Of a stretch of DNA of 49,406 bases, positions 7,664 through 45,708 are shown piece after piece; within the stretch, counting starts at the first letter, position 1, and every line of letters begins with the position of its first letter. The translations under genes and the position numbers were made by a program. The stretch is taken from assembly GCA_001275005.1 (NCBI GenBank), contig JWZX01003226.1, positions 1 to 49,406 on the forward strand, given 5' to 3'. This DNA comes from Chrysochromulina tobinii. Lineage: Eukaryota. The notes below the pieces were generated by a model. The model had not been told where the DNA came from. It ran no database searches and saw only the letters and a list, made by a program, of their open reading frames with translations.

Positions 7664-10600
7664 AATGGCGGCCGCAACGGAGCGGGTACTGGCGGCGGCA
7701 GCGATGGTGCTGGCACTAGCGACGCCGGCGCGCTCACCAACCGCGTGGAGCTCATCGGCCTGCACGCGGGCGCCAACTACACGATCAGCGTGCGCGCGCG
7801 CACGGCCGAAGGATCTGGCCCAGTCTCGGAGCTGCTGCTCGCACGCACGATGCGACCGGCTGACTTTCCGATGCCCTTGCCGCCGCCGACGGCCGTGCAG
7901 TCGGAGGGCTGTACGGCGCTCCGGCTGCAGCTGCCCGTGCTCTGTTCGTGCGCGCCCGAGCCGCGCACCACATGGGACCTCGAGCTGGCGCGCGACGGCT
8001 CCGATGACTGGCGTGTGCTCGTCGCCGACACGGCAGGCGGCAGAGTCTCGGCGTTTGGACTCGATCCTTACGGCTCGGTACGCTTCCGGCTGAGTGCGCG
8101 CACGCCCGTGCCGTCGCGCCCGGAGCCGCGCGTTGTGCTGGGCGATGCATCGCCACCAATGCTCGCCGGCCTCGGTGCGGCGGCGCTGCTCCGCCCGCCA
8201 GTCGCCTCGGTCACCTCCTCGGCCTCGATCGAGCTCTCTTGGAGCGGCGCCTTTGACAGTTGCCGCACGCTCACGAGGTGGCAGATCCAGTACACGCGCT
8301 CGCAGGTGAGCGAGGGCGCAGGCGAGGCCGAGCCGGGCGGTGCCTCCGCTTGGGGTGCTCGCCATCTCGTTTTGGGAGGGCTTCGTGCGCCCCCCTCGCC
8401 CCCCTCGCCCCCCTCGCCCTTCCCGACCTTGCCGCTGCCGCCGCCTTCACCGCCGACCCCGCCTTCACCACCGCCGCCTTCACCGCCGCCGCCTCCGCCG
8501 CCGCCGCCTCGACTCGAGACGCCGCCGATTTCGTCACTCGAGACGACGCCGATTTCGTCACCCGAGACGCCGATTTCGTCACCCGAGACACCGATTTCGT
8601 CACCCGAGACGCCGATTTCGTCACTCGAGACGCCGCCGATTTCGTCACCCGAGACGACGCCGATTTCGTCACCCGAGACGCCGCCGATTTCGTCACCCGA
8701 GACGCCGCCGATTTCGTCACCCGAGACGACGCCGATTTCGTCACCCGAGACGACGCCGATTTCGTCACCCGAGACGACGCCGATTTCGTCACCCGAGACG
8801 CGACGACTCACAGACGCCGTCGCGAGCACGTGCTCGGGCGTCCTCTCTGCCGATGGCGCCGCGTGTTGCGCGAGCATGTGTGGCAGGTGCGGCGGGGCGG
8901 GCTGTTCGGCACGGCCCGGCGGCGCCGCGCGCTGCTGCCCCGGCTGGAAGGAGTTTGATGGGCTCGCTGGCCTCTGCGCAGTCACGGGCGGCGCGGCGCC
9001 TTGTTTGACCGACGACCTCGGCGCGGTCAGCTGTGCTCATGGGTTCACACGCGTCGGTGACGAGTGCCTACGCGCATTTAGTGAAGCGATCTCCCACGGG
9101 CGAGCTAGCGAGCAGTGCCGACGTCGCTGGGCCGCTGAGCTAGTGAGTCTGCGCAACGTCGCGACACAGGCGGCCGCGCTGCGCTTGTGTGACGCGGCCA
9201 TCGCCCCAATCAGCGCCGCGGCAAGCGGGCCGGCCGGCGCGGCTTCGGCGGCCTCGGGCTGCTGGGCTGGGGCGAGCACCCGCAGCTGCTCGAGCAGTTA
9301 CGGCGAGCGGCACAAGGGCGACCCTATCAAGGAGGTGAACGCTGTGGACGCCGTCGAGTGCTGCGGCCGGTGCGCAGCCGAACCCGGCTGCCTCCACTAC
9401 ACCTTCGGGTCAGGTGCGCCACGTAGCACGTGCGAGCTCTATGCAGCGGTGGACGGTAAGCTACCGGCCGCGGACGACGTCGTGGCGGGCACCCTGCTAG
9501 GCGGACCGTGGGCATGGGCTGACGGCGGATTGCTGCAGCATGAGGAACATCGCGCCTGGGCACCTGCGCAGCCTGACGGTGCCGATAGCAGCGGCAACCG
9601 CATCATTGGCGTTTCGTGCCTTGAGTTGCTCTCGAGCCGTGGCGTGGACGCAATGGCGCGTGGCAAGTGGGCGGATGCACCGTGCGTGCAGCCCAAGCCG
9701 TTTGTGTGTGCGCGGCCAGCGGACTTAGCCATTCCCTCGCCTGCGCCGCCGCCCTCGCCCTCACCGCCGCCCAGCCCGCCGCATCCGCCGCCAAGTCCCC
9801 AGCCCAAGCCCCCACCCTCGCCGCTACCGCTCCCACCGCCGCGCAAGCCGCCGCCACCACCGCAGCATCCCCATCCGCACCCAGCCCCCATCCCTTCGCC
9901 CTCGCCCTCGCCGCCGCGCCCTCTGCGGCCGCCGCCGCCCCCGCTGGTGCTGCCGCCCTCGCCGCCCCCTCCGACAGTCCCATGCTCCTCGCCTCATGAG
10001 AGCGATACGCGGGTCGAGCGCTGTGCCGATCGCTGCCACATCGAGACCCTCGCGACCGACTGCGGCTGGTGTGAGTGCAAGGCGTGCGACTTTTGTCGCC
10101 GCTTCGCCGCGGACGCACACGCGGTATGGCGCTCGCTACCGTTTGACGGCGCAGACGACGCGGGCGCTGTCGCGGACGGCGCCTTCGCCTCATCGTCTGC
10201 GAGTCAGCGCCTGGCCGCGGCGGCCGTGCCCCCTTCGAGCGTGCGTACTCTCTCGCCCACAGAGCTCGAGCTCGCGGCCTTTCGCTGCCCGCCGCCCGCT
10301 GGCTGCCGCTTCCGCTTCCGGCCACTGAACGTGCACGGCTGGCACGACTGGTCGCTCAGCAGTGACAGGGCCACAACAGACCGGCTGCCCTCGCCGCCGG
10401 CGCACGCGCTGCGACTGGAGATGCGTCTCCTCGCGCCGTTCACACGAGAGCGCTCACTGCTCGAGGAGGTCCTCCTGCGCGACCTCGCCAAAGCGCTTCG
10501 CATCCCGCGAGCCTCCATCCGGCTCGTCGAGCTGCGTCTGGCCGCCGAGTACGCGACTGTTGATCTCCTTGAGCCAGGAGCCTACACCGCGGCAAGCCGC

Positions 10601-11703: not shown

Positions 11704-12528
11704 TCACTTGGGACGGAAGGCGGCCGCTGCAAATTCGTAGTTGAAGAGCTGCTGCACCTCTGGGAATAGGAAGATGGGCCTGAACAGCCATGGCGTGATC
11801 TCGATCACGGGGCGCCCCGTGACGGCCTCTTCTATTACAAAGGAGGTCACGGCGATCATCGCCAGCCGGCCGTTGTTGATTTCGCGGGTCTGCATCGCAC
11901 GGCGCGCCTCGAGCGAGGCACCGCCCAGCAAATTTAGAGGGTCGAAGCCAAAGTCGCCAGGCATCCAATCGTCGGTGCCCTCGCGCAGCTTCAGCGAATA
12001 TGCATCTACGACGGCAATGCCAATCGCGAAGAGGCCCAGCGTCGCCGGGATTGTGCTCTGGTCCAGCCCACCGTTTAGGACTGATGGAGAGCGGCCGCCA
12101 GTCTCAACGAGCAGCAGCGGCTCGCGCAGAGCGCGGCTAAGGACAGGTGATAGTAGTTCCTGCACCGGCCATGCGAGTGCGGCAAGCATGGCCAAGCGGC
12201 CATGACGCAGCTCCGCCTCACGGTAGTCACGCAGGACGTAGGCTCTCGGCCTCGCCTTGTCAAGGGCGCTGCCAAGGTGCAAGTCGCGCTCCGCAAACTT
12301 GAACGGGTCAAAGCCGTAATCGGCCACGAAATTGTAATCCACCCAGCTCTGTGAATTAGGATTGAAGTCGTCCGGCATGTCCTCCTCCTCGTCGTCAAGA
12401 GGCAAGTTTCCAAGCGCTTTGAGGAGCTCATCCAGGGTGGGTGGTTCCTCACCCGAAGCCTGCAGCCGTGGCAGCGGGACGCGTGCGGCGGGCGCGGCGA
12501 GACGCGCAACCATTACCTGAGAGCGCAT
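11704..12528 (-). CDS. Light-harvesting chlorophyll a/c-binding protein (LHC superfamily, Lhcz-like)
   Basis: DYGFDPFKF, YREAELRHGRLAMLA, PSVLNGGL, PGDFGFDPLNL, EINNGRLAMIA motifs. Confidence 0.93.
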   Translation of the reverse strand: MRSQVMVARLAAPAARVPLPRLQASGEEPPTLDELLKALGNLPLDDEEEDMPDDFNPNSQSWVDYNFVADYGFDPFKFAERDLHLGSALDKARPRAYVLRDYREAELRHGRLAMLAALAWPVQELLSPVLSRALREPLLLVETGGRSPSVLNGGLDQSTIPATLGLFAIGIAVVDAYSLKLREGTDDWMPGDFGFDPLNLLGGASLEARRAMQTREINNGRLAMIAVTSFVIEEAVTGRPVIEITPWLFRPIFLFPEVQQLFNYEFAAAAFRPK

Positions 12529-12789
12529 TGGGTTCCTTCCTTGTGTCCTTGTGTCACACCTTGTACCGGTAACCGGTTCTCTGTGAACGTTAACGCGACA
12601 CGTTCACATTCACGTTCGTTAATCTCGGCAAGACGCGCATCCACCGGTCCCATGGAGACACTCCGTGGAAGGCGCAGACAAACACATACACTCCGGGGGT
12701 ACCCCCGGGGTCGGAGGAGACATCAACAACACGTCAGGGGCACAGGAGGCGCCAATTCATGAACATGCTCATGCAGGCGCCAACTCATG

Positions 12790-13060: not shown

Positions 13061-13184
13061 GTCCTGTCTCCGTTTCATGCGTTTCCTTTCCTCAGCATGC
13101 ACCATGCAGCACACACAGCGAGGCACTGCTCAAATCAGATGGCGACACCTGGTTGCCGTGCACCCTGTTGCCGTGCACCCCGCC

Positions 13185-14643
13185 TCATTTGCTTCGCAAG
13201 CAAGTTTCAATGAGCAGATCAAGCACATCATCGGGAAACTTCATGCTGTATTTGTTCAGCCACAGCAGCAGCAAGACAAATCGCTGGGTGGTGACGTTGA
13301 ACATCAAATGATCTTTGCGAGACCAATTGACCACATCCCAGACTTTGATCGTCCCGTCGCACGATCCCGACATAATCTTGGGCCCGTCCGGGGAAAACGC
13401 CACCGACATGATTGGTAGGCTGTGGGCGTCCGTCTTCTCGCTCAACAGCTCCAGTTTGTCTGCCAGGCAAGCCATATGGCGTCAGCGTCAGTTTTGGCCA
13501 AGGAGGGGCGATTCGAGGGCTCTGGCGCACCAAAATCCCAGACTTTGATCGTCATGTCGTGCGATCCGGACACAATTTTGGTCCCGTCCGGGGAGAACGC
13601 CACCGACCTGATGGTGTCGCTGTGGGCGTTCGTCTTCTCGCTCAAGACCTCCAGCTTGTCTGCCAGACAAGCCAGCAAGCGTCAGTTTTGGCCAAGGAGG
13701 GGCGATTTGAGGGCGTAGTGCACCCGAATCCCAGACTTTGATCGTCTTGTCGTCCGATCCCGACACAATCTTGGTCCCGTCCGGGGAGAACGCGACCGAA
13801 TTGACGTCCCCGCTGTGGGCGTTGATCTTCTCGCTCAGCAGCTCCAGCTTGTCTGCCAGACAAGCCAACAAGTGTCAGTTTCGGCCAAGTAGGGGTGATT
13901 TGAGTGCTCCGGCGCACCTGAATCCCAGACTTTGATCGTCTTGTCGTGCGATCCTGACACAATCTTCGTCCCATCCGGGGAAAACGCAACCGACCAGATC
14001 ACGCTGCTGTGCGCGTTTGTATTCTCGCTCAGCAGCCCCAGCGCGCCTGCCGGACAAGCCAGCAGGCGTCAGTTTTGGCCAAGGAGGGGCGATTTTGAGG
14101 GCTTTGGCGCACCCGAATCCCAGACTTTGATCGTCTTGTCGTACGATCCCGACACAATCTTGGTCCCGTCCGGGGAAAACGCCACCGACGCTACGCAGTC
14201 GCTGTGGGCGTTCGTCTTCTCGCTCAGCTCCTCCAGCTTGTCTGCCAGACAATCCAACAGGCATCATTTTTGGCCAAAAGAGGAGGGGCGATTTTGGGCT
14301 CGCGGCGCACCCGATTCCCAGACTTTGATCGTCCTGTCGCGCGATCCCGAGACAATCTTCGTTCCGTCCGGGGAGAACGCCACTGACATGACCCAGCTGC
14401 TGTGGGCGTTGGTCTCCTCGCTCAACATCTCCAGCTTGTCTGCCAGGCAAGCGAGCAAGCGTTAGTTTTGGCGGAGGAGGGGCGATTTTGAGCTCGCGCC
14501 GCACCTGAATCCCAGATTTTGATCGTCTTGTCCTCCGATCCCGACACAATCTTGGTCCCGTCCGGGGAAAACGCCACCGACATGACCCAGCTGCTGTGGG
14601 CGTTTGTCTTCTCCGTTAAACACTTGATGAGCGTCGCGATCAT
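13185..14643 (-). CDS. Seven-bladed WD40 protein (HET-E/NWD-type repeats), one repeat per exon, with a short helical C-terminal tail; predicted 352 aa
   Basis: Exons 14643-14505, 14439-14311, 14241-14113, 14046-13918, 13852-13724, 13659-13531, 13459-13185 sum to 1059 nt (353 codons, in frame). Introns are GTGC...CTGAC-like...GGCAG, phase 1. Repeat consensus [32 protein letters not shown]. An acceptor just before the ATG (14645-14646) means an upstream exon may exist. Confidence 0.88.
13330..14615. repeat. Tandem array of 7 ~195-bp units (129-nt exon + 64-71-nt intron)
   Basis: Recurrent CCCAGACTTTGATCGTC, CCGTCCGGGGA and intronic TTTTGGCCAAGGAGGGGCGATT at ~195-bp spacing. Confidence 0.95.
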
Positions 14644-15790
14644 CCTGCGAACGAACGAGAGAGAAGAAGAGAGGCTTTAGGCTGCATGCGTGCATTCGGT
14701 AGCATGGAGATATGGGACCACAAGCGGCTTCAAGCTCGAAGGGCACTTGAAGTGCCTCGGGGCAGACATGCAACAGCCAACAGAGTGCCGCAAGGTTAGG
14801 GGACTCGCGTGCGGCGTGTGGCTCCGAAGCTCATTGCGAACGGAGAGAGTCGCAGGCCCTCGAGAGAGAGGCAGCCCAGCTCAGGGTCTCAGCAGGATTG
14901 GGCAGTCACGTGGCAGTGGAGCGCGCGGGGATGGAGAAGAGGGAGACGCATGTGTGCTCCCTCCAGAGTTTTTTCCGGAGATGCAGGAGTAGAACCCGCA
15001 ATGCCCAATAGAGTAAAGCACCTGAGCGGTCTCGATCGATTCCGTGTGCGAAGGCGGTGCGGTGTGCGCGTGCAGCGATCGCACCGACGCACGTTGCGCG
15101 CGCGCACGAAGCGGAGCGCGACGCACGCAGCACGCCCGACATAAAAACTCGCGTCATCATGAATTCACAACACGAATTCACACAACACGTAAACGTTCAC
15201 ATCCAAGAGGGCCATGAAGGGCTCATCGCATCCCCCCCTCTACGGGAGGGCTAGATTTTCCGTTCGATGCCCGCACGTGTTCGGACCAACGTCGAGACTG
15301 AAGTGTGTGAAGACTCTGTAGCTTGATGATTGTACGTTTTGAATTTAGAATTAGAACAGAACTCAGAAGTATCTTACTCTTTCCGCTCGCGTAAATACTT
15401 GCAATTTCCGATGCGGTGCGGTGTTTGTGACCGGCGTCGGTCGACGCGCCGACCGGCTGTTACAGCTCGCCGCGCAGCCGGTATCGGGGCCTTGGCTAAG
15501 TCGGCGCCGCACGTGTATCCCGCCACCACGACGACCAGGCTCCGCTCGACTTGGCACTCGAAACACACCGCACAGGCACCGCGCCTAACAAGAGCCTCTA
15601 CTCTCGGCCCCGCATCTCTTTCAAAGCGCCGCAACCCCAATATGCACGCGATCAATCTCAGGCCAATTGTCGGGTGGGGTCGTCGGCGCGACCAAATCCA
15701 AATGGACACGCAGGAGGTGATGACGGCCTACTCATCAATGCACAGAAAGATTGCCGTACCTGCGATGCGCGAGTTGCATACACAGCTCAG

Positions 15791-16177
15791 TCACGCTCGT
15801 GCTTGGCTCGGGTAACGTTTCAGCTGCACGTACTTCTTCTCGGACTGCGCAGCTGCAGCCGTCTCGTCTGCCATGTCAGCAGCGAACGTGCGGGCATCGA
15901 TGCTGGCGGCACCCTTCATTCCGGTAGTCCCAAATGGGCTCACAATCGAACGAGGGTCCCAGATGATGCCGTTGTAACCCCGCGAGCGACCCATGGGGGT
16001 ATCGCTGAATCGTGCGTCGAAGATGGAACGACCATTGGGGCGCGGGTCTCTCATCTGCGAGCTGGTGCTCCAGGCGCTGGGCACGATCCCCATGTCCTCC
16101 TCGTGGGCCATAGAGTAAGGCGAGTAAATTTTCCTCCCTTGAATTCCATACTTCGGAGGGCTCCCCATGAACTCCAT
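15791..16177 (-). CDS. Small hypothetical protein (~128 aa), head-to-head with CFAP54
   Basis: Protein-like composition (MEFMGSPPKYGIQGRKIYSPYSM...), unlike the Arg/Ala-rich shadow ORFs; no family recognised. Confidence 0.5.
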   Translation of the reverse strand: MEFMGSPPKYGIQGRKIYSPYSMAHEEDMGIVPSAWSTSSQMRDPRPNGRSIFDARFSDTPMGRSRGYNGIIWDPRSIVSPFGTTGMKGAASIDARTFAADMADETAAAAQSEKKYVQLKRYPSQARA

Positions 16178-16446
16178 CGCGCCGCTCGCTCGCTCGCTCG
16201 CTCGCGCCGCCTCCCGGCTACCGGGTACCCGGAGAGACCGTGCCTCAACCCCGCGATGAAGTTTGCGCAAGTTTAGAAACGGTCGGGAAAAATAAGAATT
16301 TGGCTTCAGCGTCGTTGTTTACACCAGCAGACCGCTCCCACATGAACATCTGTGAACATTCTCCCGACACGCCGTTGCGTCCACCAGTCGACCCCTTCGC
16401 GAACGCTGACGAGCCACTTGCCGCACCTCCTCAGCGCCAACGTAAA

Positions 16447-19400
16447 ATGGCCGAGAAGAAGCCTGGCTTCGATCCTGCCGCGTACTTCGAGAAGATGTTC
16501 CGGAAGTTCGAACACACCGCCGCATCGGGCTCGCCGGAGCTCCAGGCCACGGTCACTTCCTCGCTGCTCGAGCTGCTCTCGACCTACCGGCTCAAGCTGC
16601 AGCTTGGCGTGTACCAGGAGCGACTCGTGCAGTCGGGCCGGATCATCGCGTCGCTTGGCGACTATGAGCTCGCGCTCAGCGAGTGCTTCGCGCCGATCCT
16701 CGGCACAGCCGAACTCGAGGCCAAGGGGATGGGCGCCATTCGGCTGCGCGTGCTCGCCGAGTTTGGCTCCGTCGAGTGCAGCTTCGCGCTGCTCGACGAG
16801 CGCGACCCGTCGGTGGCGCACGCCGCATCGACGGCCACGGTGCGCGAGCTCCTTCGACGCGTGCGCGTGGGGATGGCGTCCTGCGCCAAGCACGAGACGC
16901 TCTACTGGCTGGTGCTCAACGGCACGCGTCTGGCATACAGCATGTGCACCCGGCTAATGCGGCCGGAGCGCGCGGCTGAGGCGATCGAGACGCTCGGCTG
17001 GTGCGCGCTGTGCATGGAGGGCATGCTGCCGCTCCTCGCGCCGCGCTTCCTCATGTGGCGCATCCAGCTCTACGAGGCCCTTTGCCACTGCTACGAGGCG
17101 GTGGGCATGGTGGAGGCGGCGGCCAAGGCGGCCACGCACGCACTCGCGCGGTACACGCAGCTCAAGAACTACGACAAGCACGACCCGGTGCCGCCGACGG
17201 CGGAGATGAACGCGCGCTATGATCGCGCCGAGAAGGCGCTCGGCGCCCTTCGCTTCAAGTACGTGACGTGCCTTGCACCGCCCAAGGGTCCTTCCCCGGA
17301 GGAGTTGGCAGCCGCCGCCGCTCCCGCCAAGGGAAAGCCGCCGGCCAAGGGCGAAGTCCCGCCGCCTCCGCCGGAGAGCGGCCTCGTCGTGGCGCTCAAA
17401 GAGACGGTGGGCGAGGCGCCCACGGCGCAGCTGGTGGCGGTGCTCGAGGCGCTGCACGACTACACGACCAGCGCACGCACTCTCGCGACGGCGCCTCCCT
17501 CCGAGGCGCGCGAGAAGATCGTCTCCGAGCTGCTCGCCAAGGGCATGGAGCTTGCGGCGAGCTCGCTCGCGAAGCTGACCGCACACGAGGAGGCCAAGCT
17601 CGCCCTCGCTCTGGCGAACGAGCAGGCGGCGAGCGCGCAGGCGGCGGCGACGACGGCGCAGGCGGCGGCCGAGGCGGAGGCGGCCGCAGCGCCACTGGCA
17701 GAGGGCGCGCCACCCTCGCCCGTCGCGGCCGCGGCCGCCGAGGCGCAGGCGCAGGCGCAGGCGTCTGCGGCGGCGCTCGAGGGTTTGCAGGCGGCCGAGG
17801 CGGCGGCGGCCGCGGAGGCTGCGGCCGCGACACAGGCTCTACCGCTGCCCATGCACGTACGGCTCCTGTGCGCCGCCTTCAAGAACCAAAAGTGGGACGA
17901 GGTGAGCATGCTCGCTGATGAGCGCTGATTACCGCTGATTACCGCTGATGAGTGCTGATGGCGTTGCATGCAGGTGAGCATGCTCCTGCCGGCAGCGCAG
18001 GCGCGTGTTGACCGTGCGTGCCCCGAGGCCGCGGCCGCGGCCGACCGGAGCGCGGCGGCGGTGGGCGGGGCGACGCTGGGGCGCACGATGCCGATCGCTC
18101 CTCCGCCGCCTCCGCAGGCGGTGAGCGCCACCACCTCCGTCACCTTCGCTGCCGACCATTCCAAGCTGACCTTTGCCCAGGACGGCGCCACTCTCGAGGT
18201 GCACGAAGGCGCAGGGGAGGCCGCGTCGACGGCGGCCGCAGCGGCGGCGGCCGCGGAGGGGGTGCCCGACGCGGCCATGGCTGCCATCCTGTGGCTCGAC
18301 GTTCACGTACTCGCCGCCTATCGTGCCATCGACGAGGCCGATGAGGCCGCCCGCTACGATGCGATGGCCGCCCTCGCCACGCTGCTCGATCTTAGCGCCA
18401 CGTCAGGCGTGGTGAGCGGCGCGGCCGCGGCGCGCAAGGACCTCCTCGCCGACGCGGCACTACGCCTCTGGACCCTGTCGGCTCCTGCGCTCGTGGCCGC
18501 CGACATCGATGCATGCACCCAGCCCGACACGGCGGCCACACAGCGGCAGCGCTCGATGGGCGGCGCGGCGGCGGCGGGGGATGGCAAGCTGCGGCTGGTG
18601 CTCAAACCCAAGACGGCGGTGGACGCGCAGAAGCTCGCCGAGCAGCTCGCACGTATGAACAAGGTCGATGCCTCCTTCAGCTTCGTCGTGGCCGATGCCC
18701 CCAAGGGCAAGAGCGCAGGCGGCGCACCCATCACCATCTCGGGTGCGGGCGAGCTCGCCGTGCTCTCTGTGGCGGACAAGGCGCGCAAGGAGTCGGGCGC
18801 GCAGTGCACCCAAGGGCCGCTCCTCTCAAAATCGCAGACCGCCGCCGCCGCGACGGCCGCGACCTCCACGGCGGCGCTCTCCCGCACGACCGGTGCCGGC
18901 GCCAACGGCGACGGCGCGACGCCGTTGACTCGCATGACGCCGGCACAGCTGGTGAGCGTGCTGCGGCCGGTGCACGTGACGCTTCGCCAGGTGGATGCGA
19001 CGGATGCGCAGCTGCGCGCCACGATCGCACTCCGGCTCACCAGCGTGCTCCTCGACCTGGCGAAGCCCGACCCTGCCGTCGCTGTTGCGCGCGCCGCTCT
19101 CGCCGACCTTGAGGCTGCGCGCTCGGCGGCGGTCGTGCAGATGGCGTGGAGAGGTCTGCAAGGCGCACCCTCCGCGTCGGCGACGAGCGTGCTGCAGCCG
19201 GCGGATGGGCCGGCGCCCTTTTACACGCCCACGGACCTGCTCCTCCAAACCCTCGGCTGCCAGCATGCGGACTTGCTGCTCCTCCTGTTCCGCGCGGAGC
19301 TGCAGTCGGGCATGCGCAAAGCCATCAAGCAGGCGAAGGTCGAGTTCGACACCTTGCGCGCGGCGCAGCTGCGTCGGCGGCAGCAGCAGCACATCTACGG

Positions 19401-25779: not shown

Positions 25780-26240
25780 GCAGGCTTGGCGCTGTGTCGT
25801 TGTGGGATGAGGGAGAGGCTCGACGTATGAGCGATCATCGCATGAGTCGCGGCCGCGTCGAGTGCACGTGGTGGTGTATCCTCCAAGTGAGAATCGAATA
25901 AGTGCAAGAGCGGAAAATTCGAAAGTAAACGCCCCCCCTGTCCCGCTTGACCAGGTTTGTGTTGGCGATCTCCGGCGGCCCTGACCGCCTGACGAATCTG
26001 TTTCGTCGCGTCGTCTTGAACGGCGATTTGTTTCCGACACCCTCACGTCCTTGCCCAGGAAGGATACACACCGCGGAAAGGGACACGATTTTGTCGACAA
26101 GAATGCGGTACATTCAAGTGCCGCCGGTTGTCGCGTCTGATCTCTGGTCCGGCGGCGCGGTTCATGCTCCGTCCGATCCCAAATCCAAGGCTGCGGCTGC
26201 AGCTGCTGCAGCCGACGCGTGCGCGTGCGCGGCGGCGGCG

Positions 26241-28619
26241 ATGGCTTCAGCGGCTGCTTCCATCAGCAGCACATCAGCACACCTCGACAAGGAGCGCATG
26301 CAGCTCGAGATGATGCGAAAGGCAAACGACGACACCGCGGCCGGAAGCACTGTGGCGGCAATCAAGGCGCTGAACAAAAATCGGCTGCGGCTAGCGGCTG
26401 CCGAGCGCGAGCGTGACAGACTGCGCATGGAAACTGCGGCGCTCCGCGTCGCGTCGGATTCAGTCAGGGCAAGCTTGGAAGCGCAGGTGCAACATTTGCG
26501 GGCTGACCTCGCCGCTTCCCTCGCCCGCGAGATGATCAGAGCAGCCCAGGACGCGGACAGAGCAGCCCAGGAGGCCGCGGCAGAGGAGGCCGCGGCAGCG
26601 GAGGCCGCGCCAGTGGAGGCCGCGCCAGTGGAGGCCGCGCCAAAGGAGGCTGCGGCGGAGGAGGATCCTTCGACAGCTCAAGTCGTTCGAGAGCTCCGGC
26701 TGCAGCGCCAAGCTGTCGGCTTCCTAGCGAATCGAGAGCTCGCGCGCGCGTGGATGAGCTGGGCGGCGTGGCATGCGGAGCGAAGCCGGCAGCTCACCGT
26801 GCTGCGGAGCTTCTTGGGGCGCCTGATGAACCGGCAACTGTCACGGGGCTGGCAGTTGCTGCGCGAGCTGGCCGCGGAGCGAACGGCGGCGCTGCTGGCG
26901 ATGCGGCGCGTGCTGAGCTGCCTGGCAAACCGCGGGCTGGCGAGCGGCTGGCGCGCGTGGCAGTCGGCTGTGGCAGAGATCCTTGCGAAGCGCGCGAGCC
27001 TACGCTCAAGCCTCGGGCACCTCGTCCATCGAGAACAGGCAGCCGGCTGGCACACGTGGGTGGAGCAGTACCACGAGCGGCTCGAACAGCTGCGGACCCT
27101 GCGTCGCGGCCTCGGGCGAATGAGACTCCACGGCCTAGCCAAGGGGTGGGCAGGCTGGCGCCGTCTCATCGAGGAGCGTGCGGCGGAGTTGGAAGCGCAG
27201 CGCCGCGTGCTGCGCTTCATGAGTGGCTCCCTCCGTGACCTCGTCCGTGGCTGGCACGGCTGGCTCGGCTTCCTCGACGAGCTCGAGACGGCGCGACAGC
27301 AGATGCAGAAGTCGATCGGCTTCTTCATGTACCGCGCGCTCATCCCGGCATGGAGGGCGTGGCTCCAGGCGTTGCGAGAGCGGCAGGAGCAGATGCGCCT
27401 GCTGAGCCGCTCTGCAAAGTTCATGAGCCAGCGCGGGCTCGCGCGCGGCGTGCTCGCCTTCCAAGCGAACGCAGGGCGCAGTCCGACCAATCGCCTCAAC
27501 ACGGCCCTTTCACTGCTCGACATGTGCGCCACCCTCCTCCTCGAGCAGGACGAACGTTTCGTGGGCGCCAGCGCGGCCAGCGCCAGCGCGGCCATCGCGA
27601 TCAGCGCCAGGGCGGTCAGGGGCGTCGCGGCCGACGGCGCGGGTGACGGCGCGGGTGACGGCGCGGGTGACGGCGGGGGCACGGGAAACCACAAGAAAAC
27701 CGGGGCCTACCCGTGCCTTGTGGCGGCGTGCTCGCACGGCTTGACGCCCGTCGTGCAGCTTCTCCTCGACCAGAAGGCCTCTGTGGACGCCGCCACGCCG
27801 AGTGGCTGGACTGCACTGATGGAATCGTGCCAAAATGGGCACGGCGAGTGCGTGCGGCTCCTATTGCAGCGTGGCGCGAATGTCAACCTCGCCAAGAATG
27901 ACGGCTGGAACGCGCTGATGGTGAGCTCCAAGGCGGGGCATGAGGGCTGTATTCGACTCCTAGTCCAGAAGGGCGTGGCTGTCAACCATGCCAAGAGCGA
28001 CGGTTGGACGGCCCTGATGATCAGCTGCCGCAACTCTCACGTGAGCTGCACTCGCGCCTTGCTCGACCGCGGCGCGCACGTGGACGCGCTCAAGCCGAAT
28101 GGCTTCACTGCGCTAATGGCGGCATGTCAGGTAGGCGCCTTTGAGTGCGCGCGGCTGCTGCTCGAGCGGGGCGCGGCCGTTGGGGCCGCCCGGCATGATG
28201 ACGGTTGGACAGCGCTGATGCTCGCGTGCCAGAATGGGCACCTCGAGTGCGCGAGATTGCTCCTCGAGCATGGGGCCGACGTCCACCAAACCAAACCGGG
28301 CAACGGGTGGAGTGCGCTCATGGCGGCCAGCCAAAACGGACAGACGGAGCTCGTGCAGCTGCTGCTCGAGAAGGGTGCCGACGTCACGGCGAAACGCAAG
28401 GACGGTGCGAGCGCTCTCAGCCTCGCAGAGGAATACGCGCGCCACGAGACGGCGCGGCTGCTCCGGAGCACCCTCGGCCTGCCCTCGACGCGCCCCGCAA
28501 GCGCTGTGCCCGCGGGCGACACGGATGCCTTTGCACAGGCCGCGCGCAAGGCGCGAACGAAGGTCGTCCAGAGGAAGCTGGCAACGACGGCAATTGTGGC
28601 CGCGGCACTGCAGCGCTGA
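26241..28619 (+). CDS. Coiled-coil + Sfi1-like Trp-rich repeats + ankyrin repeat protein
   Basis: About 8 repeats of R-x-L-x-x-[GA]-W-x-x-W at ~33-aa spacing, then ~7 ankyrin repeats (GWTALMESCQNGHGECVRLLLQRGANVN). Start is uncertain; the ORF opens at 25947. Confidence 0.8.
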   Translation: MASAAASISSTSAHLDKERMQLEMMRKANDDTAAGSTVAAIKALNKNRLRLAAAERERDRLRMETAALRVASDSVRASLEAQVQHLRADLAASLAREMIRAAQDADRAAQEAAAEEAAAAEAAPVEAAPVEAAPKEAAAEEDPSTAQVVRELRLQRQAVGFLANRELARAWMSWAAWHAERSRQLTVLRSFLGRLMNRQLSRGWQLLRELAAERTAALLAMRRVLSCLANRGLASGWRAWQSAVAEILAKRASLRSSLGHLVHREQAAGWHTWVEQYHERLEQLRTLRRGLGRMRLHGLAKGWAGWRRLIEERAAELEAQRRVLRFMSGSLRDLVRGWHGWLGFLDELETARQQMQKSIGFFMYRALIPAWRAWLQALRERQEQMRLLSRSAKFMSQRGLARGVLAFQANAGRSPTNRLNTALSLLDMCATLLLEQDERFVGASAASASAAIAISARAVRGVAADGAGDGAGDGAGDGGGTGNHKKTGAYPCLVAACSHGLTPVVQLLLDQKASVDAATPSGWTALMESCQNGHGECVRLLLQRGANVNLAKNDGWNALMVSSKAGHEGCIRLLVQKGVAVNHAKSDGWTALMISCRNSHVSCTRALLDRGAHVDALKPNGFTALMAACQVGAFECARLLLERGAAVGAARHDDGWTALMLACQNGHLECARLLLEHGADVHQTKPGNGWSALMAASQNGQTELVQLLLEKGADVTAKRKDGASALSLAEEYARHETARLLRSTLGLPSTRPASAVPAGDTDAFAQAARKARTKVVQRKLATTAIVAAALQR

Positions 28620-43410: not shown

Positions 43411-45708
43411 TCAGTACAGGTAGGCGCCTCCAAAGCTGCGACCAAAGTATGCTGGCGAGCTCGTCCATGCTGGCGCGTCGTCCATGCGTGTCGTATGGGC
43501 AAGCGAGGACGACGAGCTCTCGTCCTCATCCTCAGAGCTCGAGGAGCCTTCCTCATCACCGATCGAGCCTCGCACGACGAGCCCGGGGATGGGATAGCGA
43601 AGGGAGAGCAAGCGCCGGTGGCCTGCGCTGGGAAGGATGGCCGCGCGCAGGTCGGGCGCAAGGGCCTCGAGCTGCTGTGGGACCAGGAAGACGAGCAGCA
43701 CTGTCGTCGGCTCAAAGGCGGCGCTGTGCATAAAGTCAGCGAGCAACGCGCAGCTGAGCACGATGCGGCTCGCACACGCGTCGTCGTCCGCAATGCGCGC
43801 TCGTGCGCGAGCGAGCAGTTCGCCGTTGACGTCACATCCGATGGCGGAGCAGCCCGTTTGGCGCACAAGGGTACAGAGCAGCGATGCGTCGCCGCAGCCC
43901 AGGTCGCACACCACGTCCGATGCAGTGATGCCCCCAAGGGCGACAAGACGCGCGGCCTGCGCTGTGCGCGTCGGCACGAAGGGAGCAAACGAATTGCCCT
44001 GGATCCGCGCGCCCAGCTCGGCGGCCCAGTCGGAGGCGCCCTTATTGGCGCGCGCCATCGATGGTGGCATCCACGGGCCATGGTGCGCCGCAGAGGAGGA
44101 GGGTGGCGCCGCGGCCGCCTCGATCCTCATCGGCGGCGCCGAGTGGATCTCGACCTCGGGAGATTGGGGATCGATCCTCATCGGCGCCGCCAAGTGGATC
44201 TCGACCTCGGGAGATTGGGGATCGATCCTCATCGGCGCCGCCAAGTGGATCTCGACCTCGGGAGATTGGGGATGCAGGCGCACAAGCAACTCGCCGCTCC
44301 CCAGCGCCTCTCGAGTCCAAGCCGCATGCCCAAATTTGGCAAAGGCGTCCGCGGCGGCCGCGCAGCTGTCGTCGACGGCGTATGGGGTCTCACGCCTCAC
44401 CTCGATGAAGCCGACGAGGATGTATCGCTTGCCGCGCTCGATGCGCAAGCCACCATGCAGCAGCTGGCCGCTGTGCACGATCGCCGTGCCCTGTGCCGGC
44501 CGCACAGTCCAGCTGCCCTCCGTGGCTGCGACCGGCTCGGCGCCAGCCCCGTCCTCCTCATTGAGTCCCTTGCGCACAAAGTCGAAGAGGGTGCCGCCGC
44601 CTATGAACTCTCTCTCAGGGTCGGAGAGCAGTACGTTGACTGAGAAGAGCGAGGCGTCGGTGTGCATGGCGAGCGCGCGCTGGCCCGCCGGGTCGTCGGC
44701 ATCGTACTGCACGACGAAGGCGTCTCGCATCTCGAGCATCTCGGGCAAAAAGGCCGGCCCACAAAAGGTCGGCGCGAGCGGCCGGATCACTCGGCGGAAG
44801 AGGGCCTCGCATACACGCTGACGGAGGGGCGCGGGCAAGCAGCGCAGCGGAAGGTCCTGGGTGGGGTATTTGCGATGACGCGTGCGGTCCCAGCCACCGC
44901 GCGCGCGCGCCGCGATCGACGCGGCCAGCCGTACCGCCTCACACTCGTCCCGGCTCAGCACGTCGCGCGCCTGCCACACCGCTTCGCCTGAAAGAGGCTC
45001 GAGCTCCAGCTCCAGGCCCCGCGCGGCAGCTTGCTCGCCGTCGCCAAACGCAAGGAAGCGCTCGAGATTGTTCTCACGCAGCCGCTGCTCCGCCGTATGC
45101 TCGATGGCGCGCCGCTCGGCCGCACTCAGGCCTGTCGCACTGTCGGTCGCACGCGCGGTCGCAGCGGCCGGTGCGTCTGGTGGCGACGACCGGGCGACCT
45201 CGCGCCATAGCCGCGCGCGCCGTGACGCGGCACTGAGGCGTATCGAGCACAAGTAGCGGGACTTGACTGCTCGGTCGTCCATAATGCGAGGCGACTGCCC
45301 CCGATGAATCGGCCGCCGCTGGCGCTCGCGCCAGAACATCGCTCGTTCACAGGCATCGGCAGCGCGCAGGTTGCAGACGCGCTTCATCAGCATGGCTGAC
45401 GCGCTCACGATCTTCGGCGCGCCTATCTTCGCATGCAGAACGTCGAAGAACCTCCTTTCGGCCATGCCCCGCCTGATGCGGTGCACACTTATAAACTCCA
45501 AAGGGGAGCAAACGGCCCGTGGCAGCCGCGCATGCCCGATTCCTGAGGCGATCCGCATGTCCACGCCCCGTTGCACCGCATCCTTCCTAGCCGCATCCTG
45601 CTTCGCATCAAGCTGAACCGCGACCGTTTGGCCTTCGAGTGTCGAGAAGAATACCACATCGACGCCGAGCGTGCGCAGCTCTGCAGCCGTTGCTTCGATC
45701 GCTGGCAT
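43411..45708 (-). CDS. Fusion of a PLOD/P4H-like Fe(II)/2OG oxygenase and a class I SAM-dependent methyltransferase
   Basis: RHRKYPTQDL, DAFVVQYDA, LAMHTDASLFSVNVLL, FIGGGTLF, HSGQLLHGGLRIERGKRYILVGF; then APFVPT, DVVCDLGCGDASLL, IGCDVN. N-terminal extent is uncertain. Confidence 0.78.
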   Translation of the reverse strand: MPAIEATAAELRTLGVDVVFFSTLEGQTVAVQLDAKQDAARKDAVQRGVDMRIASGIGHARLPRAVCSPLEFISVHRIRRGMAERRFFDVLHAKIGAPKIVSASAMLMKRVCNLRAADACERAMFWRERQRRPIHRGQSPRIMDDRAVKSRYLCSIRLSAASRRARLWREVARSSPPDAPAAATARATDSATGLSAAERRAIEHTAEQRLRENNLERFLAFGDGEQAAARGLELELEPLSGEAVWQARDVLSRDECEAVRLAASIAARARGGWDRTRHRKYPTQDLPLRCLPAPLRQRVCEALFRRVIRPLAPTFCGPAFLPEMLEMRDAFVVQYDADDPAGQRALAMHTDASLFSVNVLLSDPEREFIGGGTLFDFVRKGLNEEDGAGAEPVAATEGSWTVRPAQGTAIVHSGQLLHGGLRIERGKRYILVGFIEVRRETPYAVDDSCAAAADAFAKFGHAAWTREALGSGELLVRLHPQSPEVEIHLAAPMRIDPQSPEVEIHLAAPMRIDPQSPEVEIHSAPPMRIEAAAAPPSSSAAHHGPWMPPSMARANKGASDWAAELGARIQGNSFAPFVPTRTAQAARLVALGGITASDVVCDLGCGDASLLCTLVRQTGCSAIGCDVNGELLARARARIADDDACASRIVLSCALLADFMHSAAFEPTTVLLVFLVPQQLEALAPDLRAAILPSAGHRRLLSLRYPIPGLVVRGSIGDEEGSSSSEDEDESSSSSLAHTTRMDDAPAWTSSPAYFGRSFGGAYLY
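44122..44272 (-). repeat. 3 x 51-nt coding tandem repeat (IDPQSPEVEIHLAAPMR) in the interdomain linker
   Basis: Seen directly. Confidence 0.9.

What the first reader, a model, noticed from the sequence alone, without database searches (positions are those of the whole stretch)
13185..14643. WD40 gene built from tandem exon+intron cassettes, one propeller blade per exon
Five internal exons are exactly 129 nt (43 aa) and all six introns are phase 1, 64-71 nt and clearly homologous to each other. The unit of duplication is therefore exon+intron. Any cassette can be skipped, duplicated or swapped without breaking frame, and seven units give one complete propeller. This parallels repeat-exon shuffling proposed for Ectocarpus LRR-ROCO/NB-ARC-TPR genes. 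It could be a combinatorial receptor-diversification system and is invisible in the ORF track.
Basis: partly seen in the sequence, partly recalled or inferred. Interest (0 to 1): 0.85.

Follow-up and report, generated by a model that had tools for sequence, protein, structure and literature searches.

The report
Shuffled WD40 sensor cassettes in alga
In a single-celled alga, this gene is built from seven near-identical exon-plus-intron cassettes that it shares with many other genes, including NLR-type genes, and the cassettes vary mainly at the predicted binding face, so the family likely forms a recombining repertoire of non-self sensors.

Summary
The structure is real: minus strand, five 129-nt internal exons, six homologous phase-1 introns, 352 aa. 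The closest named full-length relatives are from the haptophyte Chrysochromulina. The gene belongs to a dispersed family (at least 122 metagenome stretches) of two types: short 7-repeat genes like this one, and NACHT-WD40 (NLR-like) genes with the same cassettes. Cassettes sort weakly by locus and not by position; 97-100% identical copies sit in different loci. Alleles of this locus lack or replace cassettes. Variation concentrates in codons 14, 15, 17, 33 and 35, the WD40 top-face sites also selected in fungal het-e/het-d. Two spliced transcripts of a paralogue show in-order splicing and no skipping, and exchange tracts often break inside exons. So DNA-level recombination is supported and splicing combinatorics is not. 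This is Podospora-NWD-style concerted evolution in a brown-alga-style one-repeat-per-exon layout; I found no description in haptophytes. Ligand and immune role are untested. The scan noted a similar intronless bacterial array elsewhere.

The parts
15022..15102 (-). non-coding 5' exon; start of the module shared with paralogues (upstream limit approximate)
   Evidence: Similarity to paralogues begins near 15102; donor conserved in most aligned loci; the matching exon is spliced in L068. Splicing at this locus is inferred.
14645..15021 (-). 5'-UTR intron, 377 nt; this allele lacks a ~75-nt piece that holds a mini-exon in L063/L068
   Evidence: Acceptor directly before the ATG in all 19 aligned type-A loci; spliced out in L068, retained in L119; deletion seen against L058.
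14505..14643 (-). coding exon 1: start codon and WD40 repeat 1
14440..14504 (-). intron 1, 65 nt, phase 1
14311..14439 (-). exon 2, 129 nt, repeat 2
14242..14310 (-). intron 2, 69 nt, phase 1
14113..14241 (-). exon 3, 129 nt, repeat 3
14047..14112 (-). intron 3, 66 nt, phase 1
13918..14046 (-). exon 4, 129 nt, repeat 4
13853..13917 (-). intron 4, 65 nt, phase 1
13724..13852 (-). exon 5, 129 nt, repeat 5 (absent from allele L062)
13660..13723 (-). intron 5, 64 nt, phase 1
13531..13659 (-). exon 6, 129 nt, repeat 6
13460..13530 (-). intron 6, 71 nt, phase 1
13185..13459 (-). exon 7: repeat 7 plus a conserved 48-aa tail predicted to form two helices, no known family

Best explanation
This is one member of a dispersed algal WD40 gene family whose exon-plus-intron cassettes are shared between loci and vary mainly at five codons predicted to form the propeller's binding face, so it likely acts as a variable non-self sensor diversified by DNA recombination. 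Shown: the gene structure; at least 23 distinct arrays in assemblies that appear to be one strain; the same cassettes in short 7-repeat genes (type A, this gene) and NACHT-WD40 genes (type B); near-identical cassettes at different positions of different loci; alleles that lose or replace cassettes; five hypervariable codons in a conserved frame. Inferred: unequal crossing-over and ectopic gene conversion between the ~195-bp units move variants through a family-wide pool. Any in-register crossover, in exon or intron, keeps frame and splicing, and the homogenised introns extend the homology. Selection favours new residues on the top face and holds type A near seven repeats. Inferred by analogy only: the ligands are proteins of viruses, parasites or non-self cells; type B signals through its NACHT switch; type A, which has no NACHT, acts as a stand-alone adaptor or decoy through its conserved tail.
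For: Type B: NPHP3_N E 1e-27 to 4e-29 and NACHT E 2e-6 to 1e-5 in 3 of 3 ORFs tested. Exchange: 113 of 131 cassettes have their nearest neighbour in another locus; within-locus identity 0.841 against 0.836 between; L018 unit 5 = L066 unit 3 (100% over intron and exon); one cassette is 97-99% identical in L042, L066, L079 (type A) and L009 (type B). Tree: locus label 101 changes (minimum 22, shuffled 109), position 97 (shuffled 88), type 33 (shuffled 37.5). Alleles of this locus: L062 lacks cassette 5 exactly; L072 and L015 carry other variable residues in units 1 and 7; L034 and L056 (one locus by upstream flank) differ at variable sites in 7 of 7 units. Selection: among 281 non-redundant exons pN is 0.57-0.69 at codons 14, 15, 17, 33 against pS 0.31 and pN 0.09 elsewhere (corrected ratios 2.6-4.6, and 1.6 at codon 35). 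Diversity at positions 1+2 of those four codons is 0.61 against 0.19 in intron interiors and 0.22 at four-fold sites, while interleaved bases are almost fixed (122 of 131 cassettes). The same sites vary in 105 usable of 120 listed terminal-exon proteins. Codons 15, 17, 33, 35 have the spacing of the selected codons 7, 9, 25, 27 of Podospora NWD repeats (PMC1805685); I read 15, 17 and 33 as the R1-2, R1 and D-1 hotspots (PMC3419727).
Against: No ligand, phenotype or induction data. Among near-identical exon pairs the excess of amino-acid change at the five codons is only 1.35-1.45 times the synonymous rate and not significant (p 0.08-0.16), though all 25 such changes were non-synonymous. Pairwise pN/pS on recombining repeats is not a formal test. 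All arrays come from short-read metagenome assemblies, so single-contig alleles (L062, L058, L072, L015) could be chimeric; only the arrays seen in 2-4 assemblies (L042, L009, L079, L018 groups) are guarded against this. There is a small within-locus signal (18 of 131 nearest neighbours against 3.9% expected). The window's gene has no NACHT or known effector domain, and its tail matched nothing known. Its neighbours are ordinary genes.
Confidence: 0.72

Rival explanations
1. Combinatorial alternative splicing: each gene yields many propellers by skipping or including cassettes, as reported for brown algal ROCO genes.
For: Exons are frame-symmetric. RNA-run contigs give joints that skip several units when laid on this locus. 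P0042 is an intron-less 3-repeat protein whose last two repeats match L063. Alternative splicing is reported for ROCO LRR exons (PMC11378527 abstract).
Against: L068 and L119 keep the exons in genomic order with only intron retention. The skipping joints have sides of 20-46 letters in a family with near-identical exon ends, so they can be paralogue junctions. P0042's first repeat differs from L063's, so it may be another allele. 13 of 16 type-A loci keep seven units. Only two informative contigs exist, so low-level skipping is not excluded.
Confidence: 0.1
2. Neutral repeat turnover: a young WD40 cassette expanded by tandem and segmental duplication; surface codons drift because they are unconstrained, and there is no recognition role.
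For: The close-pair test is not significant. Some arrays have dead splice sites or inserts (59 of 338 junction segments depart from the exact pattern; 2 of 16 type-A and 2 of 7 type-B models did not read through, some probably through my handling of long inserts).
Against: The variable codons are about three times more diverse than introns and four-fold sites of the same cassettes, which drift alone does not give. The rest of the repeat and the tail are under strong purifying selection. The same cassettes cap NACHT proteins.
Confidence: 0.08
3. Type-A proteins are variable substrate adaptors for a ubiquitin ligase: the propeller picks the target and the helical tail docks on the ligase. This is a more specific form of the best explanation for this gene's output.
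For: Propeller plus a highly conserved two-helix tail. The tail's last part resembles the start of an F-box; this resemblance is recalled and comes from no call.
Against: No F-box or SOCS-box match in Pfam for the window's tail or six distant relatives at E up to 10; none in PDB profile searches; all 17 representative hits but one spurious repeat are tails of this family. A fold of the tail alone was not returned.
Confidence: 0.25
4. The cross-locus sharing and allele differences are assembly artefacts of short reads in a repeat family.
For: Exact shared tracts reach 192-232 nt; L058 looks like a join of this locus's 5' end with the L077 array.
Against: Shared cassettes recur in independently assembled copies of each locus and differ from each other by a few bases. 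The window and L029 agree in both 3-kb flanks and in array spacing and variable residues. Spliced contigs confirm the cassette order of L063. The lack of positional sorting holds over all 131 cassettes.
Confidence: 0.07

Closest known systems
Podospora anserina NWD/HNWD family (het-d, het-e, het-r): NACHT-WD40 NLRs with high internal conservation (PMC1805685; PMC13449251)
   Same: Near-identical WD40 repeats exchanged within and between loci, repeat-number polymorphism, diversification at the same top-face codon pairs, NACHT-WD40 members in the family.
   Different: Here every repeat is its own exon with a co-homogenised intron (intronless fungal repeat arrays are my recall; the passages I saw do not state it). 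Most loci sampled, including this one, lack NACHT and carry a novel tail; type B has an RSH-like insert within the NACHT region, not a HET domain; the host is a unicellular haptophyte; no function is shown.
Ectocarpus ROCO-LRR and NB-ARC-TPR genes with one repeat per exon (PMC3341825; PMC11378527)
   Same: One repeat per symmetric exon, intra- and intergenic recombination, diversifying selection, candidate immune receptors in an alga.
   Different: Closed WD40 propeller held near seven repeats rather than an open solenoid; short homologous ~65-nt introns that are part of the repeat; inverted spare exons seen in only 1 of 119 loci; no skipping seen. The Ectocarpus screen found shuffling restricted to LRR and TPR genes.
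[quoted passage not shown]
   Same: Clonal exon arrays of one exact length and one intron phase, attributed to unequal crossing-over and ectopic recombination in a protist.
   Different: LRR rather than WD40; thousands of genes; no shared pool with NLR-type genes in the passages seen.
Highly repetitive bacterial WD40 propellers (PDB 2YMU, PkwA 5YZV) and bacterial NLR-like WD40 arrays
   Same: Best solved-structure matches of the repeat; same repeat consensus.
   Different: No introns; prokaryotic.
Tas1/Apk1 (p)ppApp synthetase domain (PDB 6OX6; PMC10083569), for the type-B insert only
   Same: Type-B NACHT region holds a ~200-aa insert matching Tas1 at E 1e-5 with the aligned motifs kept.
   Different: Sits inside a eukaryotic NACHT-WD40 protein; activity untested; absent from the window's gene.

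Membership tests
WD40 beta-propeller proteins | WD40 repeats with the Asp-His-Ser-Trp tetrad | tested here: met
   Pfam WD40 E 2.5e-11 for repeat 7; H12, S30, D34, W40 invariant in 7 of 7 repeats.
WD40 beta-propeller proteins | seven repeats folding into one propeller | tested here: inconclusive
   The spliced window protein was not folded. Homologue P0009 gives a model with pTM 0.72 that matches 7-bladed propellers.
NWD/HNWD NLRs (NACHT-WD40) | NACHT domain in the same protein | tested here: not met
   The window's gene starts at repeat 1 after a non-coding exon. Type-B relatives do have it.
NWD/HNWD NLRs (NACHT-WD40) | high internal conservation and concerted evolution within and between loci | tested here: met
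NWD/HNWD NLRs (NACHT-WD40) | diversifying selection at top-face codon pairs | tested here: met
   searches support it; the close-pair test was not significant; no formal codon model was run.
NWD/HNWD NLRs (NACHT-WD40) | repeat-number polymorphism among alleles | tested here: met
   L062 lacks one cassette (single contig); loci range over 5-7 (type A) and 4-10 (type B) units.
NWD/HNWD NLRs (NACHT-WD40) | N-terminal HET or other death effector and a non-self-triggered response | not testable with these tools
   None in the window's gene; type B has a Tas1-like insert of untested activity.
Brown-algal exon-shuffled receptors (ROCO-LRR, NB-ARC-TPR) | each repeat on its own symmetric exon | tested here: met
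   279 of 338 non-redundant junction segments have GT..AG with an exact 129-nt exon.
Brown-algal exon-shuffled receptors (ROCO-LRR, NB-ARC-TPR) | ROC-COR or NB-ARC domain with LRR or TPR repeats | tested here: not met
Brown-algal exon-shuffled receptors (ROCO-LRR, NB-ARC-TPR) | spare repeat exons on the non-coding strand | tested here: inconclusive
   None in the window; two inverted cassettes in 1 of 119 loci (L017).
Brown-algal exon-shuffled receptors (ROCO-LRR, NB-ARC-TPR) | alternative splicing of repeat exons | tested here: inconclusive
   No skipping in two spliced contigs of a paralogue; short contigs cannot phase junctions.
F-box/SOCS-box WD40 ubiquitin-ligase adaptors | F-box or SOCS-box motif | tested here: not met
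   No Pfam or PDB match for the tail; the fold of the tail alone was not returned.

The most novel reading that the evidence does not exclude
A unicellular haptophyte runs a two-tier innate immune repertoire from one genome-wide pool of WD40 exon-intron cassettes. NACHT sensors armed with a Tas1-like alarmone synthetase kill or arrest the cell on recognition, while dozens of stand-alone propellers such as this gene act as adaptors or decoys and as a cassette reservoir; recombination is fast enough to give clonal populations new specificities against giant viruses.
Probability: 0.25. Interest if true: 0.88.

Novelty: new variant of a known kind. Interest (0 to 1): 0.7.

Why it matters
How single-celled algae recognise viruses and other non-self is largely open. 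This family offers a concrete, scorable candidate repertoire: five codons per cassette define a specificity, and alleles can be typed in cultures and lake populations. It also joins two diversification routes described separately, fungal NWD concerted evolution and algal one-repeat-per-exon layout, and shows the same top-face codons diversifying in a distant lineage. Because the introns are homogenised with the exons, they give a built-in neutral marker for measuring conversion tracts, a mechanism described as unknown for the fungal genes (PMC13449251, passage seen). Gene callers break these genes into fragments, which may explain why they were missed.

Tried and rejected
No whole genome is held for this window, so no genome-wide count was possible; family size is a lower bound. 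The junction pattern found nothing in viral contigs (0 stretches), so there is no sign of a viral carrier. A transposon-like carrier was considered: paralogue similarity fades at variable points after the stop, and I saw no shared terminal repeat by eye; not tested further. An upstream coding exon or N-terminal extension (as annotated in P0027, P0112) was rejected: that stretch has frame-breaking indels across loci and is spliced out in L068. The fusion to a diphosphorylase in P0027 was taken as a probable gene-model join, not tested. A regional hypermutation window was judged unlikely because bases between the variable codons, including a synonymous site, are nearly fixed. Skipping joints in RNA contigs were set aside as unassignable; gaps in their cover are no evidence. 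Tail identity: Pfam, the atlas (best 0.82, unnamed), PDB profiles and a viral fold search gave nothing; the tail-only fold was still queued. The ankyrin gene at 25929-28619 has no such cassettes. No complex prediction was run, since no partner is known. Literature searches that found no description of this family; the library lacks most subscription papers, and I opened no supplements.

Full report
Observation. On the minus strand, 14643-13185 holds seven WD40 repeats. Exons 2-6 are exactly 129 nt; the six introns are 64-71 nt, GT..AG, phase 1 and 71-89% identical; the spliced frame gives 352 aa. Tandem Repeats Finder sees one 194-bp array, and the exon-end motif occurs 7 times against 0.05 expected. 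Each exon carries one sequence repeat, strand d followed by strands a-c, so the intron lies in the c-d loop; this is inferred from standard WD40 topology and the model of homologue P0009, which matches 7-bladed propellers. The closest named full-length relatives are Chrysochromulina parva and C. tobinii proteins (67% and 81% identity to exon 7), so the host is likely this freshwater haptophyte or a close relative.

Splicing. Contigs L068 and L119 match locus L063 with 0 mismatches but lack introns at the predicted sites; I read them as transcripts, which is an inference from the missing introns. They keep the exons in genomic order. L063 intron 2 has lost its acceptor and is retained in frame in both; intron 6 is retained in L068. 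L068 also shows a non-coding 5' exon spliced, through a mini-exon, to the acceptor just before the ATG, which fixes the start codon. RNA-run contigs show the exon-exon joint but are too short to assign to this locus; contigs with 0-1 differences over its unique 3' flank occur in RNA runs, where DNA carry-over is not excluded.

Family. 119 of 120 stored loci were parsed (L014 gave no profile hit). Paralogues share only a module from about 15100 to just past the stop; flanks are unrelated. Two types exist. Type A, like the window, is propeller plus a 48-aa tail. Type B has about 870-990 aa upstream with NPHP3_N/NACHT and APAF1_C matches and a different last exon. In assemblies that share identical loci with the window (inferred to be one strain) I chose one copy each of 16 type-A and 7 type-B arrays. 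Type A has 7 units in 13, 5 in 2 and 6 in 1; type B has 4-10 (L017's eleventh hit belongs to a neighbouring relic). 14 of 16 type-A models read through to the tail.

Exchange. Of 131 intron-plus-exon cassettes of standard length, 113 have their nearest neighbour in another locus, 47 of them across types; 18 are within a locus, above the 3.9% expected. Identity within loci (0.841) equals identity between loci (0.836). On a tree the locus label needs 101 changes (minimum 22, shuffled 109), position 97 (shuffled 88) and type 33 (shuffled 37.5). So there is no blade-position orthology and only weak locus grouping. L018 unit 5 equals L066 unit 3 over 232 nt, and one cassette is 97-99% identical in three type-A loci and one type-B locus. 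That tract includes an unusual end of the preceding exon in all four loci, so it begins inside an exon. Of 141 ends of exact matches of 60 nt or more, 44 fall in introns, about their share of length; such ends mark the first mismatch, not the crossover. Of 54 unit pairs with an identical 12-nt first variable block, 34 differ at codon 33, which fits mid-exon recombination or recurrent change. The L062 deletion breaks in an intron. Breakpoints are thus homology-driven and not intron-bound.

Alleles of this locus. L029 matches the window in both 3-kb flanks, spacing and variable residues. L062 lacks cassette 5 exactly and has one change at codon 17 of unit 6. L072 (97% over 2.5 kb upstream) has unit 3's variable block in unit 1. 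L015 (94% over 3 kb downstream) has a different unit 7. L058 joins this locus's 5' end to an L077-type array. Each is a single short-read contig and could be chimeric.

Selection. In 281 non-redundant exons (391 clean units of 601; the rest were truncated, first exons or carried indels) codons 14, 15, 17 and 33 have pN 0.57-0.69, codon 35 0.43, against pS 0.31 and pN 0.09 elsewhere; there are 227 five-residue haplotypes over codons 14-17 and 33. Diversity at those codons' first two bases is 0.61 against 0.19 in introns and 0.22 at four-fold sites. The pattern repeats in 105 of 120 terminal-exon proteins, whose tail is almost fixed. Against this, near-identical pairs give a non-significant ratio of 1.35-1.45. 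Codons 15/17 and 33/35 flank conserved residues at the spacing of Podospora codons 7/9 and 25/27, which lie on the propeller's top face, and fit the R1-2, R1 and D-1 hotspots (my mapping from the tetrad).

Mechanism. Shown: structure, family, shared cassettes, allele variation, site-specific hypervariability. Inferred: in-register unequal crossing-over and ectopic conversion circulate cassettes and sub-cassette tracts; selection diversifies the binding face and holds type A near seven repeats. Inferred by analogy: recognition of non-self. The type-B NACHT region carries an insert matching Tas1 (E 1e-5; Pfam RelA_SpoT only E 0.087; atlas 0.93 to a cluster with 34% RelA_SpoT and 0.96 to unnamed, partly diatom clusters). 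RelA_SpoT-NACHT-WD40 architectures are listed for fungal NLRs. This gives type B a plausible effector. The window's gene has none; its tail is confined to this family (17 representative hits; 536 proteins, best 120 seen).

Comparison and novelty. [quoted passage not shown] I found no paper on this family (search listings). What I saw of each paper: PMC1805685 passages and section 9; PMC3341825 abstract and sections 15 and 17; PMC3419727, PMC6564038, PMC4986451, PMC13449251 and PMC10083569 passages; PMC11378527 abstract. No supplements were opened; NLR surveys such as PMC13449251 may list Chrysochromulina proteins there. An earlier scan note describes a bacterial WD40 array with the same variable-site pattern; no note held all my keywords. 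Verdict: real, a new variant of a known kind, interest 0.7.

Noticed in passing
L019:3143-3745 (+) and the other type-B loci L009, L017, L043, L046, L047: A Tas1-like RelA/SpoT nucleotidyltransferase domain is inserted in the NACHT region of the NACHT-WD40 genes; unnamed, partly diatom clusters look alike. Five of six type-B ORFs checked have an MGAGAS motif at the likely start, possibly for myristoylation (recalled motif).
   Followed up: partly
L017:7150-8050: Relic of a second type-B gene with two exon-plus-intron cassettes inverted between palindromic junctions, like Ectocarpus non-coding-strand exons; seen in one assembly only.
   Followed up: partly
L077:5092-5181 and L058:936-1025: An 87-nt in-frame insertion with inverted-repeat ends (MITE-like) inside one cassette exon; no other copy in the window or fetched loci.
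   Followed up: partly
L077 unit 3; also L025, L030, L058: A cassette variant with a 189-nt in-frame insert that duplicates the repeat's last strand; related inserts appear in P0063 and P0112.
   Followed up: no
L063 intron 2 (L068, L119): An intron with a lost acceptor is retained in frame in both spliced contigs, adding 20 residues to a loop.
   Followed up: partly
L043:40-4617: Type-B gene with an internal partial duplication and an extra ~250-aa domain of no Pfam family, followed by a cassette-type intron.
   Followed up: no
P0130, P0131, P0132, P0133, P0135, P0137: Distant relatives (40-62% tail identity) keep WD40 plus the same tail, and P0135 appears to read through an intron at the same position, so the layout may be older than this species.
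   Followed up: partly
window 13152-13180: A 15-bp tandem duplication just after the stop codon, shared with alleles L015 and L062.
   Followed up: no
window 11704-12603 (-), 16171-17928 (+), 25929-28619 (+): Neighbours are ordinary: a light-harvesting protein, a CFAP54-like gene and an ankyrin gene without cassette structure.
   Followed up: yes
window 8515-8800 and 44120-44273: Coding-type tandem repeats: 12 copies of 24 bp (90% match) and 3 copies of 51 bp (98% match).
   Followed up: no
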